A stretch of DNA of 64,000 bases, taken from NCBI RefSeq assembly GCF_964194155.1, contig NC_135898.1:77934001-77998000 (forward strand). Reading direction: 5' to 3'. This stretch comes from Cetorhinus maximus. Lineage: Eukaryota. The notes under the pieces were generated by a model. That model saw only the letters and a program-made list of their open reading frames with translations. It was not told where the DNA came from and searched no databases. The translations under genes and the position numbers were made by a program. Each line of letters starts with the position of its first letter. Within the stretch, counting starts at the first letter, position 1. This document shows positions 1,428 to 8,332 of the stretch, one piece after another.

Positions 1428-1526
1428 CTTAAGTGTATCATAACCCTTCTGAAGATAGTTGCCACATCGCTCATGCTCTCCTATAGATGCATAAAACTTG
1501 CTCCACCAATCGATCGATTCCTCCTC
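1428..1526 (-). CDS. MYOF: MYOF exon ~40, [33 protein letters not shown]
   Basis: 99 nt, phase 0 to 0; ferlin DWWSKF motif. Confidence 0.95.
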
Positions 1527-1819: not shown

Positions 1820-1828
1820 CTTTACAGC
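1820..1828 (-). CDS. MYOF: MYOF microexon ~39, AVK (9 nt)
   Basis: gaacag|GCT GTA AAG|gtaagt. Upstream cactaat branch-like site, long pyrimidine tract and about 70 nt free of AG; positional equivalent of human LTEK. Confidence 0.8.
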
Positions 1829-3734
1829 CTGTTCACAGGATCAATATTTATTCACATTGGGAATGATGGAAAGAAAGAGGAAGAAAACAAACCAAATTAG
1901 TGAAAGTTGTTCACCAACTCAAATGGTTAACATAGTTCTAAGTAGGAAAGAATAATCAGAACAATTTTATTTCAGGAGAGAGGGCTTCATTATGGATAAA
2001 TCCACCATTCCCAAGAGAAAAGATTCCGAAACCATGAGTTTATTACATACCTCTTCAGGAAATCACACCAAGATTAATTTAGGTTAATTTACACCTGTTT
2101 AAATGCATGCTGAATCTTGTGTCACAATTCAATGCAAAAAATCACAACTAAAATTTCTGGCTTTGGTTAGTGATGTGAAAAAACCCCTCAAAAGTTGGAT
2201 TCAACTTGTAGGGAGCAATAAAACAGACTTTGTAGGCCTTTGCATTGATGAAGGTATGTAATGAACAAGTATTGGTTAGTAACACCAGTATTCAACTCCA
2301 AAATAGAAATTCTCTTGCAATACAAACTAATGTACCGATCATGCAGGGGCTCCATAAAGCTTTTTAATGACGGGAAATGGAACAGAAATTATCAACCACT
2401 TGAAGTTTTTGAATTTGTGACTGAACCCTCAAATTTCCTCCATGGGATTTAGAGACACTATCCCTTTTTATCAGCCTACACAGTCTTCTGAATTTTTTAA
2501 ACCCACACAGCATTATTAACATAAGACGACACAGTTTTCAAACTGCTGTTTCAAAGTACAGTACCACTGTACAGCACATTGTACATACCTGGGATGATCG
2601 AAAGGCAGCCAGTCCTGCAGAATCAGAGGGCACCATCTTTGGTTTTTTATAATAAGAAAAGATAAGGATTTTAATAATGCTGCACAGTTTAAAGATGGCC
2701 TTTGTTTGACCTTGTTGCCATCGGTTTAACCTGTAGTCTGTGTAGGCGAGCATAGGAGATATTGTGTCTTTTTAAAGCAAGATTTTATGATCAACTGTAT
2801 GTAAATGAGATTTAGGAGTAGATAATTGGCATCCGTACAACAATAGGAGGAATTGTTTTTAAAGAAAGAAATCTTTTATCATCACAATCAAACAGCAATG
2901 TCTCTCAGTAGCTAGTTTTCTGTAGGATTCTTAACATTAATTGAGGAGGCTCCATACCAGAGGTTTTGTTTTGCAAATCACTCCAGTAATAAAAAAAAGC
3001 TCATCTATGCCAAAACAGAATTTTAGGTGTAGGTCTAACACAAGAAGTGTGGTTACAACTGCCTTCAGAGATTTATGGTGCTTAAAATGTTAATCCATAC
3101 TGTGAAGAACTTGTTACAATAAATCTCTCAGCTTTAGATCGAATATTCTCCTGGCAAACCCTACAAAAGTAAAGCAGATTTGAAGTAAAACCAACAAGCT
3201 CAGAAGAACATTCTTATTAGAAGAGGGGCCAGCAACAGAAAGGATTGAAAACAAGGAAGGCTCCGACAGTGCGAGCAACTCCAGCAAACATCAGACCTCG
3301 ATTCCAAGCTATAAAGACTTTCTTCGGACTCACCATGTTTAGTGTATTCTGGGAATAAATCACCCAAATTTGGACTTTAAGGCTTTAGCTGATGATTCAG
3401 CTGTGCATGATCTATTTAACAGGAAACGCTAAGCTTGATCTCATTCACCCTCTCTCTCCCACCCCCATCTCGGAGATCTTGTACCTTACCCAAAGTCCAG
3501 GCAGTGCACTGCAGCAACTTAGTTAGATCAGGAGTATGATTACTACCACAAATGAGATCAGCAAACTCACCAAGAACTCAGGATCAAATTGGCACATTCT
3601 GTTATGCACATCAATATTGCTGCATATAGTTCATTTAAGCACTAGCTATTTGGTGTGCCTTAACTCTGGTCCATCATGTTGAATATTTACACTATAAAAC
3701 AAGTGAAATGGGATTACTAAATATATGGATAACT

Positions 3735-5320
3735 GCAGCCATTGGTTTTCAGTGCCCGCTCCAAATTCCATTCCATAACTACTGACTCCATTCTTCTCTC
3801 TGGCAACTGTCTGAAATTAAACCACTCCATTTACAACCGTGGTGTTACTTTTGACCCAGAGATGAGCTTCAGACCCAATATTCATGCCATCACTAAGACA
3901 GCCCATTTGCACCACCACTACCTTCAGCTGCTGCTGAAACCCTCAGTTATGCCTCTAGACTTAACTATTCCAATGCACTCCTGGCTGGTCTCCCACATAC
4001 TAGCCTCTGTAAACTTGAAATCATGCAAAAAATTCTGCTGCCCATGTCTTAATTCACTGCAAGCCCTATTCTCCCCATCAACCCTCTGCTCACTGATCTA
4101 CACCGCCCAGTCAAGCAACATCTTTATTTTAAAATTCTCATTCTTGTTTTCAAATTCCTTCATGACCTCACCCCTCCATAAATCTAATCTCCTCCAGCCC
4201 CACAACGTTCCAGAGATATCTGCGCTCCTCTAATTCTGGCCTCTTGCGCATTTTTAATTTTAATTGTTCCACCACTGGTGGCTTTGCCTTCAGTTGACTA
4301 GGCCCCAAGCTCTGGAAAGCCTACACCTCTCTGCCTTGCTGCACTCCTTTAAGGCACTTCTCTTTGACCAAACCTTCGGTCATCCGACCCAATCTCTCTG
4401 TCAGGAAAATATGTCTATATTGTACAATAAATTCCAATAACATTAGAGTCTGTGTCTGCATGGGATTTAATAGAATTAGAGGCAACTGCCTGGGTGCTTT
4501 GATGTAAGAGGAGAGGTTGGGTCTGAAATGTTAATTAGGTAAACATGGGGAAGTTTTAAAATGTGAAGTGTAAAGTGGGCAATTTGCATTTTTAAACAAA
4601 GTGTGGCTTGAATTCAAAAGTGCAGGGGTAATGTATACCTAGCCAGCAGAAGTAGTAAGAAATTGTGTATTTATTTATTTTTCCCCAAAGATTACTGGTA
4701 AAACTGAATGCTATGAGATATTCTTATCAGGAAGGTAAAGTCCAAAGACAGTGAAACAATGGATATTTGCATCCAAAGAAGAAAATATGTACAAAGGAGC
4801 AAAGACTGCCTACCCTTAAACACAGCCTAAAATTCAACAAGTGTGAAATGCCTTCAGCCTGCATATACCAAACAGGGACTGAAGTTAAGAGAACTCACTT
4901 GACAGTTCAGGATATCGTTTACTTAACCTGGGTCTTTTAAAAACGTGCGTCTTACTGTTGTCTTAATGAAAGTGTAACTGGGAGTCAGATTAAAGAGGAT
5001 TTAGAAGTGATCATAGTAGTAATTTGTAGATCTGTGTATGCTTCAAATAAATGTTTAGTCTAGTTTTGTAAAAGCCTTTAAGACTTGGTGGTCTTATTAC
5101 TACTGAATTCAAGGCACTCATCTTGAAATTTATACAAATTGCAAAACAGGTTGTGGCAGTTGTTTCAAGTTTCCCTTTGGGATTTGAACAACTCAGCATT
5201 TACCATCAGCTGTGCCATAACAATCTCCGATATGGCTTGGGTGTCATACTTTATTTTGTAATGCCCCTATGAAGTGCCTTGCGCGTTTCATTATGTTAAA
5301 GGTGCCATGATATAATTTCT
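3735..5320 (+). mobile_element. Degenerate L2/CR1-group LINE 3' fragment, interrupted by an LTR at 4399-5222
   Basis: RGVTFDPEMSFRPNI RT-tail remnant. The 3' tail resumes at 5223 and resembles the copy at about 31865-32100. Confidence 0.7.
4399..5222. mobile_element. Solo LTR (824 bp)
   Basis: Ends TGTCA...TAACA; flanked by ctctc/atctc (5-bp TSD with 1 mismatch); cleanly splits the host LINE tail. Confidence 0.7.
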
Positions 5321-6650
5321 TGTGGTATTGGACAGTAATTTTTTTTGATGGGTGTAAAAGGTGAAAAAGGCCACTTTATGTATGACTGCAGCTTGTGAGT
5401 AACCAGTGATATGAAGTTCAGGAAATGGAGATCAGCATCACTATTGAAAGAGAAAAATAAAAGTCTTCTCTCCTTTATCTCTTCATCGGCAATGCAGTTC
5501 AAGGTATCTTGGGAGAAAAGTAGAACTGATGGAATATTAAAAAGTTGCTCTGAGAGCTTAGAAGTCAAGTCCCCAACCTTTGAGTCATGCAGGCCTGGAA
5601 TTGACGTGCATAGAGTTAATCTCTCAGTCAAGGCAGCAATAAGAGAACAAGTGGCCATAGCATCTTCAGGTTAGGAAAAAGTAAACAGAAGAAGCAGGTC
5701 TGCCACTTTCCTGCTTTCTGTGCTCAAATATGTTGAGCTACCCCTGGACAAGGCCAGAATCAGGCTTAGCCATGATATCTTCCACAGACCAGGCTGCTGA
5801 CAACCAAAATCAAACTTCCTACACTAAATCACCAATTGGTGTAGATTAAAATGTTCAGCTCATCCCTTCCCCTCCCTCTCCTGCCCAGCCCATCTGGACC
5901 CATAGCTCAAGATGCCAGTGCCTTCAGAAGTGGGGAGCAGAAAAATGTTTGCAGAGTTAATAAATATAAAAAATTTAATATAGCAAAACAAGAAAGAATG
6001 GAAAAGCGCAAAGAAGAAACAGAATCAGATTATAAACCCAATTTAAAAACAAAACGATTGAGAACTTAAAAGCTATTTCTGACATCCGAAGAGCTTTATT
6101 GATTTAACAGTCAAGAGTGACGGAGGGTCAGTTTTCAGGTAACGTGACCAGAGATTAAAATGGCTGGCCTGTGGAGAAGACGACTCCCAGGCTGTTAGAG
6201 CACAAACAATTTTTAAAAAATACGACGTGTTTTTCTTTTAAATACTGTTTTAAGTTTTTAATCTTTAGCATACGGAGGTTAACTTTCTTTGGCAGGGCGA
6301 AAGAGCAAACATCTACCTGCCAATTTAATTGTAAACCAAAATACATTCATAGATATAATGTACTTGACGTATCAGATTGCTATACATGGCATACTTTTAT
6401 GAATCAGGATGCAATGAATGCTGGAGTCAATTGCAACAAGGTGAGTTTATAATTCATTCTAATTTAGGAAATCAAGTATTTCTAGTGGAAATTTAGTTAC
6501 TGACAGACAGCCAATTCCAAGACAAATGAATGCAGCAGATGCTAAATCACTCCCACAATTTAATTTAACATACAGTGATAGAAAACAATCCAGTAGAGCC
6601 ATCTAAACCCTGAGTATTGCCATCTCTTTGTATTCACTTTCCATACATAC

Positions 6651-6707
6651 ATGCAGTGCTGATGGAGTAGCCATTTTGATGACTGCCTTGGTCATACTAT
6701 CTACAAA
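6651..6707 (-). CDS. MYOF: MYOF cassette exon 38a, FVDSMTKAVIKMATPSALH, 57 nt
   Basis: ttctaactttcag|TTT...CAT|gtatgt; phase 0-0, 19 codons. Aligns without gaps to human exon 38a as recalled (CLSSMSTALSKMASPATVH). Confidence 0.85.
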
Positions 6708-7278
6708 CTGAAAGTTAGAATGAATTGTGAATGTTCCATCTTGTGTAGGTTAGAAAAATGATGCTTTTACCCACACCACTCACTCAACCAATATCACAAC
6801 ATTTTTAAATTGTTCTCATCAGCCATAAATCTTACAGATTGCAGAGATTACATAATGGGCCTAGCAACATATCAAACATTGCACCTGTAAAATAATAGAA
6901 ACACGTTATGCAATTTATAACTAGAAAAACAAATAGAATTCAGGCCACTGCATCAAATGGAGATCCAACTTGGGTTTGTATTAAAAATGTCAAGAACCGG
7001 TATTCTAAATTCTTACTCCAATTTGTCAACTATCAGTGCAACATGATTTACCTTCAGCTTGCCATAGTGTATGGATTAAACTGTACTTGTGTGAATTTAA
7101 ACAAATCATGTTCTGTAGCTTGCCTTTATTTCAATCAATACATCATCTGCTCAATTCACAAATAGATTTTAATCCTGAGCAAGCTGTGTCTTTGGTTTGT
7201 GGGGATAAAGTATGTGATCTCAGGAAGTTCTGAGCTTTGAAAGATTTTTCAGGTCATCAACAAAATGAAGTTCATTAC

Positions 7279-7352
7279 CTGTGATTCAAGGAGAGGCTTT
7301 TGATTATCTTCTATATCGATGACACAATCACGAGCATTTGAAAGTAGAGATG
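7279..7352 (-). CDS. MYOF: MYOF exon ~38, (A)SLLSNARDCVIDIEDNQKPLLESQ
   Basis: 74 nt, phase 1 to 0; matches human ASLLSAPPCRDIVIEMEDTKPLLASK. Confidence 0.92.
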
Positions 7353-7559: not shown

Positions 7560-8095
7560 CATTCGATATGACCATGGCTGGTCCTCTATTTCAACGCCAT
7601 ACTCCCAATCTCTCCCCATACCCCGTGACGCCTTTGGTGTCTAGAAATCTTTTCCTCAAATATATTCAGTGACTTGGCCTCCACAATCTTCTGCGGTAGA
7701 GAATTCCACATGTTCACCCTCAGTGAAGACGTTTCTCATCTCGGTCCTAAATGGCCTACCTCATATCCTGAGACTGTGACCCCTTGTTCAAGGCCCCCTG
7801 CCACGGGAGACATCATCCCTGCATCCAGTCTGTCCAGCCCTGTTAGAATTTTATATGTTTCAATCAGATCCCCTCATTCTTCTAAACTTCAGTGAATACA
7901 GGCCTAGTTGGTCCAAACTCTACTCATACGACAATCCCGCCATCCCAGGAATCAGTCTGGTGAACCTTCAATGCACCCACTCTATGGGTATCCTTTCTTG
8001 GGTAAGATGCATACAATACTCCAGGTGTAGTCTCACCAAGGCTCTGTACAGCTGCAGTAAGACATCCTTGCTCCCCTGTACTCAAATCCTCAAAT
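7560..8095 (-). mobile_element. CR1-clade LINE 3' fragment
   Basis: Reverse-complement similarity to 1-345 and 27950-28560. Confidence 0.85.
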
Positions 8096-8166
8096 GCATC
8101 CAAATTTGTTCTATATACTGAAGCTGCATGAGGTTGTAATTTCTATACAAAAATAATGTAAAATAC

Positions 8167-8332
8167 CTTTTGATTGCATTCCAACAGTCTCTCTTTCAGC
8201 ATATGGGTCAATCCGATATCCTTGCAGAGAATGAATTGTGCACTGTCCAACTATTGGTTTACGTCCAAATGGTCTGTGGTCAATTACCTTTATGACAATA
8301 GGAGGGGTGTACATTTCTTCCTTTGGAAGCAG
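8167..8332 (-). CDS. MYOF: MYOF exon ~37, [31 protein letters not shown]...GMQSK(A)
   Basis: 166 nt, phase 0 to 1. Confidence 0.95.

What the first reader, a model, noticed from the sequence alone, without database searches (positions are those of the whole stretch)
1820..7352. Splicing-variable linker in shark myoferlin: up to four small phase-0 exons between exons 38 and 40
Seen: between exon 38 and exon 40 lie four short, stop-free AG...GT units that are all phase 0 and multiples of 3: 57 nt (6651-6707), 15 nt (3334-3348), 48 nt (2589-2636) and 9 nt (1820-1828). Known: in mammals this linker holds the cleavage sites (dysferlin exon 40a; myoferlin exons 38/38a) that release the C-terminal two-C2 plus transmembrane module. 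Inference: combinatorial inclusion could tune linker length and protease sensitivity, with more cassettes than I know of in mammals.
Basis: partly seen in the sequence, partly recalled or inferred. Interest (0 to 1): 0.7.

Follow-up and report, generated by a model that had tools for sequence, protein, structure and literature searches.

The report
Three optional exons in shark myoferlin
Three of the four short pieces flagged in this shark myoferlin gene are already in public gene models as optional exons (two are shared with mammals, one was found only in sharks and chimaera) and would lengthen a surface loop that is likely cut by a protease, while the fourth is probably a chance look-alike.

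Summary
The four units are there, on the minus strand, inside myoferlin; the exons translate to the RefSeq model of the basking shark, which already holds three of them: 57, 48 and 9 nt. The 57-nt exon matches the mammalian 19-residue cassette (exon 38a; name recalled) and dysferlin 40a; the 9-nt exon matches the 12-nt LTEK microexon that mammals also skip. The 48-nt exon is the extra one: in models of 11 of 12 sharks and the chimaera, 0 of 8 batoid species, and 0 of 264 non-chondrichthyan records. The 15-nt unit is in 0 of 68 models, shows no constraint, and units this good arise by chance about 0.25-0.4 times per such intron. Shark models show five combinations. The cassettes insert in the C2E anchor loop at the dysferlin-40a position. 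So three cassettes, against two in mammals; bichir also has three. Cleavage tuning is inferred; no RNA run was available. Modest interest.

The parts
8167..8332 (-).
   Evidence: Exact match to P0245 residues 1349-1403
7279..7352 (-).
   Evidence: Exact match to P0245 1404-1428
6651..6707 (-). X1: 57-nt cassette exon, FVDSMTKAVIKMATPSALH; orthologue of the mammalian 19-residue myoferlin cassette (38a, name recalled), paralogue of dysferlin exon 40a
   Evidence: In P0245; in 24 of 68 chondrichthyan records by the classifier plus 2 irregular chimaera models; similarity to bat cassette z 6.4 and to two mammalian 40a peptides z 4.4 against shuffles
3334..3348 (-). X2: 15-nt AG..GT unit, NTLNM; probably a pseudo-exon
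   Evidence: 0 of 68 chondrichthyan records; last base differs in the relative laid; 4 differences within 60 nt on either side against 3.3 expected
2589..2636 (-). X3: 48-nt cassette exon, MVPSDSAGLAAFRSSQ; found only in sharks and chimaera (19 residues in Heptranchias, Heterodontus, Callorhinchus)
   Evidence: In P0245; 15 of 68 records, 11 of 12 shark species and chimaera; shark against chimaera z 5.6-8.4
1820..1828 (-).
   Evidence: In P0245; 44 of 68 records, including 6 of 6 full-length Logan proteins; no listed difference in 1760-1895 in the relative
1428..1526 (-).

Best explanation
This is a cluster of three optional in-frame exons (57, 48 and 9 nt) of shark myoferlin, present in several combinations in public gene models, whose inclusion would lengthen a surface loop of the C2E domain and likely sets how readily calpain cuts off the two-C2-plus-membrane tail; the 15-nt unit is probably not an exon. 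Shown: the sequence, the match to annotated proteins, the conservation, and the place of insertion (same position as dysferlin exon 40a). Taken from gene models, not from reads seen here: skipping and inclusion giving inserts of 0, 3, 19, 22 or 38 residues. Inferred: that the 57-nt exon confers cleavage as its mammalian counterpart does (about 0.65), and that the 48-nt exon adds a second stretch of exposed chain with a similar effect (about 0.35). Inferred history: the 57-nt/40a cassette predates the myoferlin-dysferlin duplication; the 48-nt exon was present in the shark-chimaera ancestor and is absent from batoid models.
For: Window exons translate to XP_078421087.1 with all three cassettes. 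Great white shark isoforms differ by exactly X1, X3 or both. Shark records show five combinations: none, X4, X1+X4, X3+X4, X1+X3+X4. Bat models show cassette+LTEK, LTEK alone, or neither. Exon 40 aligns to dysferlin E1471, and exon 40a inserts between Q1470 and E1471 on the protein surface (PMC11544258, passages). Human myoferlin anchor loop is 1395-1498, its C2F/C2G-contacting part begins at 1447 (PMC12264198, passages), the residue that exon 40 starts with. Dysferlin is cut by calpain only with 40a (PMC4230592, passages); recognition is broad and tolerates substitutions, and myoferlin is cut within an alternative exon (PMC8650162, passages citing Piper 2017). The same genome's dysferlin intron holds a 60-nt unit that ranks 1 of 126 against both the X1 set and mammalian 40a.
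Against: No junction read was seen; combinations rest on computed gene models (XP_ and UniRef records), which may join exons that no single transcript holds. Myoferlin without an added cassette is already cut constitutively in cells, so cassettes may add little. X3 has no detectable likeness to X1 or 40a (p 0.11-0.65 against the X1 set, 0.26-0.83 against 40a), so nothing in its sequence points to calpain. X2's AG and GT are intact in the relative and it scores second of 245, so it is not excluded. DNA conservation around X3 is not significant in a fixed 60-nt flank (3 observed, 4.1 expected); only the upstream 200 nt are (0 against 4.9, p 0.008, one of nine windows looked at).
Confidence: 0.7

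Rival explanations
1. Same three exons, but their main effect is mechanical or interaction-based: the inserts change the slack of the anchor loop that couples C2E to C2F/C2G during membrane binding, or add a short amphipathic helix (X1) or a phosphorylation or docking motif (the invariant RSSQ end of X3), with cleavage secondary.
For: The anchor loop wraps C2F and their movements may be coupled. X1 has an 11-residue stretch with hydrophobic moment 0.54. RSSQ is kept in all 15 X3 records. A 3-residue microexon is a poor way to add a broad calpain site.
Against: The only tested function of a cassette at this position is calpain cleavage. No structure or binding test was run here.
Confidence: 0.3
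2. All four units are exons; the 15-nt unit is a young or tissue-restricted microexon of this shark lineage that annotation missed.
For: Strong donor, second-best score of 245; AG and GT kept in the relative; microexons are often missed by annotation (general knowledge); single copy in the DNA search.
Against: 0 of 68 chondrichthyan records, among them five great white shark isoforms that do capture the 9-nt exon; the last exon base changes in the relative, at the donor -1 position; background divergence around it; chance rate 0.24-0.37 per intron; no TGC in the last 25 intronic bases (motif for neural microexons recalled), though the real X4 lacks it too.
Confidence: 0.15
3. X3 is tolerated splicing noise in a permissive loop, with no function.
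For: Unrelated extra inserts occur at this position in bichir and bowfin models; X3 has a weak acceptor (2.5, below all 29 training exons) and is absent from 25 batoid or batoid-like records.
Against: Frame, length class and peptide are kept between chimaera and sharks (z 5.6-8.4), a split of roughly 400 million years (recalled).
Confidence: 0.1

Closest known systems
Dysferlin exon 40a (calpain-cleavable cassette)
   Same: Same insertion point, phase 0, about 20 residues, detectable likeness to X1 (z 4.4).
   Different: One cassette in the dysferlin records seen (15 records); paralogous gene; cleavage shown in mammals only.
Mammalian myoferlin alternative exon 38a (name and details recalled from Piper et al. 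2017; paper not held)
   Same: 19 residues at the same place, likeness to the bat cassette z 6.4.
   Different: Sharks add X3 behind it; cleavage untested in sharks.
Tetrapod myoferlin 12-nt LTEK microexon
   Same: Last element before exon 40, ends in Lys in most records, skipped in some models of bat, marsupials and turtles.
   Different: 3 residues in chondrichthyans, 4 in tetrapods, 3-5 in fishes; orthology is by position, too short for a statistic.
Bichir myoferlin linker with three cassettes
   Same: Three optional pieces at this site in gene models.
   Different: The extra bichir piece lies before the 38a-like exon and is not like X3 (p 0.09-0.60 against bichir and bowfin extras).

Membership tests
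Myoferlin (type I ferlin) | Best protein matches are myoferlins; Fer/DysF/C2 exon series | tested here: met
   the dysferlin paralogue lies on another contig
Cassette exon (X1, X3, X4) | AG..GT ends, frame kept, no stop | tested here: met
Cassette exon (X1, X3, X4) | Peptide conserved across species and present/absent between isoforms | tested here: met
   (gene models; X4 also in 6 Logan proteins from contigs of about 7 kb)
Cassette exon (X1, X3, X4) | Junction reads in this species | not testable with these tools
   No RNA holder listed
Cassette exon (X2) | Peptide conserved across species or present in any isoform | tested here: not met
   0 of 68 records
Cassette exon (X2) | DNA constraint around the unit | tested here: inconclusive
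   One relative at about 2.4% divergence; 4 observed against 3.3 expected; low power
38a/40a-type calpain cassette (X1) | Position at the 40a site and sequence likeness | tested here: met
38a/40a-type calpain cassette (X1) | Confers Ca2+-dependent cleavage | not testable with these tools
   Bench test needed
38a/40a-type calpain cassette (X3) | Sequence likeness to 38a/40a | tested here: not met
   X3 is not filed in this family
SRRM4-type neural microexon (X4, X2) | TGC close to the acceptor (motif recalled) | tested here: not met
   Absent in the last 25 bases for all four units

The most novel reading that the evidence does not exclude
The ferlin anchor loop is a splicing-controlled dial as old as jawed vertebrates: one ancestral 38a/40a cassette (kept even in shark dysferlin), to which cartilaginous fishes added a second, unrelated protease or phosphorylation cassette and bichirs another independently, so that tissues choose among at least five loop lengths and cleavage rates; batoids then lost the shark cassette.
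Probability: 0.3. Interest if true: 0.4.

Novelty: new variant of a known kind. Interest (0 to 1): 0.22.

Why it matters
It gives natural variants of the loop whose cleavage releases the membrane-repair fragment of ferlins, and suggests the 40a/38a switch is far older than mammals (a 2021 paper describes 40a only as conserved in most mammals). The three exons are already in public annotation, so this is a comparative note and not a new system.

Tried and rejected
No RNA holder listed for the stretch; the one guessed RNA run laid only on repeats: no evidence either way. The first lay was swamped by repeats, so no differences were shown for X1; its rows for 1342-2404 come from a cut table and may be incomplete; the second lay lists 22 of 25 counted differences. 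A word-based search with the linker region gave only 3 shark proteins among 10 candidates, and a HMMER search of 1.84 billion representatives gave 3 unrelated repetitive proteins: neither shows absence of X3 elsewhere. X3 as a tandem copy of X1: rejected for lack of signal in protein and DNA (p 0.21), although both are 19 residues in three species. X2 or X3 as repeat-derived: one match each in the genome, a search that skips very common words. In one search one X1 peptide was cut short by my script; rerun with the same result. The 'N' flag marks a match elsewhere in the protein, not in the linker. TGCATG (4 against 2.1 expected) and ACTAAY (4 against 2.8) counts are not informative. Piper et al. 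2017 is not held. No earlier finding of the scan fitted. No structure or complex prediction was run.

Full report
Observation. The four units lie on the minus strand at the stated coordinates, bounded by AG and GT, without stops, in phase 0. I call them X1 (6707-6651), X2 (3348-3334), X3 (2636-2589) and X4 (1828-1820). The flanking exons are 7352-7279 and 1526-1428.

The gene. An upstream exon finds myoferlins. The window's exons match RefSeq XP_078421087.1 (Cetorhinus maximus, P0245) letter for letter inside exons, and the window's contig has the length listed for that record. That model already holds X1, X3 and X4, and not X2.

Chance. A score trained on 29 exons of the gene ranks the four first to fourth of 245 candidate units in the intron (X4 16.9, X2 15.0, X1 14.0, X3 13.0). 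In 47,193 bases of other introns, 3 units reach X2's score (0.37 per intron of this size) and the opposite strand gives 0.27; for X1 and X3 the rates are 1.0 and 1.5. One of the 3 is a real exon in another phase, so 0.24 is the corrected figure. The matching dysferlin intron has 5 units scoring 13 or more among 490 of 6-90 nt, and its best 40a candidate scores only 11.8. Splice scores therefore do not settle the matter.

Conservation in cartilaginous fishes. Of 72 records fetched, 4 short Logan forms end before the region and were dropped; two clusters were listed only in part (15 of 17, 15 of 20). Among the 68 left, X1 is in 24 (plus 2 of 3 irregular chimaera models), X3 in 15, X4 in 44 and X2 in 0. 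X3 occurs in 11 of 12 shark species and in Callorhinchus, and in 0 of 8 batoid species (19 named records) and 0 of 6 skate-like Logan proteins. It always comes with X4 (15 of 15). Shark records show five combinations; great white shark isoforms differ by exactly X1, X3 or both. Shark and chimaera X3 are alike beyond shuffles (z 5.6 and 8.4). These are computed models, not reads that I saw.

Bony vertebrates. Bat models carry a 19-residue cassette followed by LTEK, LTEK alone, or neither: two cassettes. Shark X1 matches the bat cassette (z 6.4) and a set of four bony-vertebrate ones (z 8.7), and two mammalian dysferlin 40a peptides (z 4.4). No X3-like insert was found in 264 non-chondrichthyan records (best local score 29, on exon-38 sequence, against 49-68 for true X3); this set leans to short forms because the queries were short forms or single exons, so it is weak evidence of absence. 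Bichir models have three pieces and bowfin an unrelated 10-residue one, so extra cassettes here are not unique to sharks.

A relative's DNA. One contig of organism B covers X2-X4 at about 2.4% divergence (49 listed differences in 2,010 bases). Within 60 bases on either side: X4 0 differences (3.1 expected, p 0.04), X3 3 (4.1), X2 4 (3.3). The 200 bases upstream of X3 have none (4.9 expected). X3 has one change in the exon; X2's last base differs, at the donor -1 position, while its AG and GT are kept. Power is low; X2 shows no constraint but is not destroyed.

Place in the protein. Exon 40 aligns to dysferlin E1471 and to position 1498 of the human myoferlin chain, which is residue 1447 after the 51-residue offset. 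Dysferlin 40a inserts between Q1470 and E1471, on the surface, inside the C2E insert that wraps C2F (PMC11544258, passages). In myoferlin this anchor loop is 1395-1498 and contacts C2F/C2G from 1447 (PMC12264198, passages). The cassettes therefore sit just before the part that grips C2F.

Mechanism. Dysferlin is cut by calpain only when 40a is included, inclusion varies by tissue, and myoferlin is cut too, partly constitutively (PMC4230592, passages). Recognition within 40a is broad, and myoferlin is said to be cut within an alternative exon (PMC8650162, passages). From this I infer that X1 makes shark myoferlin more cleavable and that X3 adds exposed chain with a like effect; the second step is weak, since X3 resembles neither 38a nor 40a. 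The main rival is a change in loop slack or a docking or phosphorylation motif.

Paralogue. The same genome's dysferlin has, in the matching intron, a 60-nt phase-0 unit (FAGCMTSPTLNKSPSMSSLH) that ranks first of 126 units of 45-75 nt against the X1 set (16.8 against -2.1 for the next; z 5.1) and against mammalian 40a (z 2.8). This suggests one ancestral cassette older than the duplication; it is a prediction from DNA.

Literature. Eight full-text searches showed no paper on shark myoferlin splicing; 'myoferlin, shark, exon' listed one 2010 phylogeny (listing only). Passages only were read of PMC4230592, PMC6770723, PMC7140416, PMC9847081, PMC12264198, PMC11544258 and PMC8650162; no supplements were opened, and the 40a alignment figure of PMC4230592 was seen as a legend only. 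Piper et al. 2017 was not held; its exon names are recalled. Subscription journals are mostly outside the library.

Verdict. Three real, already annotated cassettes, one of them seen only in sharks and chimaera; the fourth probably chance. New variant of a known kind, interest 0.22.

Noticed in passing
window 47312-47274, minus strand: A 39-nt phase-1 cassette exon (reads PPRSSHPEKSKP) missing from the basking shark model but matching an alternative exon annotated in Rhincodon, Stegostoma, Chiloscyllium, Hemiscyllium and Scyliorhinus; it lies just before the 36-nt cassette at 46935-46900, and models hold either, both or neither.
   Followed up: partly
L004 6339-6280, minus strand (G000:C1:242919338-242919279): Predicted exon 40a counterpart in shark dysferlin, 60 nt, first of 126 candidates.
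   Followed up: partly
L003 and L006 (G000:C21 near 21.47-21.48 Mb): A third type I ferlin on the same contig as myoferlin, more divergent (perhaps Fer1L5; name is a guess); several phase-0 candidate units in its matching region, not assessed.
   Followed up: no
window 21913-21881 and 46357-46334, minus strand: Two more well-scoring short AG..GT units with no match in fetched proteins when read in phase 0; the second is the tail of a longer candidate.
   Followed up: partly
window 6655-6650, minus strand: A TGCATG word overlaps the donor of X1; its role as an RBFOX site is recalled and untested.
   Followed up: no
window 1526-1520, minus strand: Tandem acceptors three bases apart at exon 40; chimaera models differ by one residue at this point.
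   Followed up: no
window 3710-5396 and 7566-8288: High-copy repeats in these introns by contig depth; none covers the four units.
   Followed up: no
batoid records: In Hypanus, Mobula and Narcine models X1 never appears with X4, whereas in shark models it always does; small sample of computed models.
   Followed up: no
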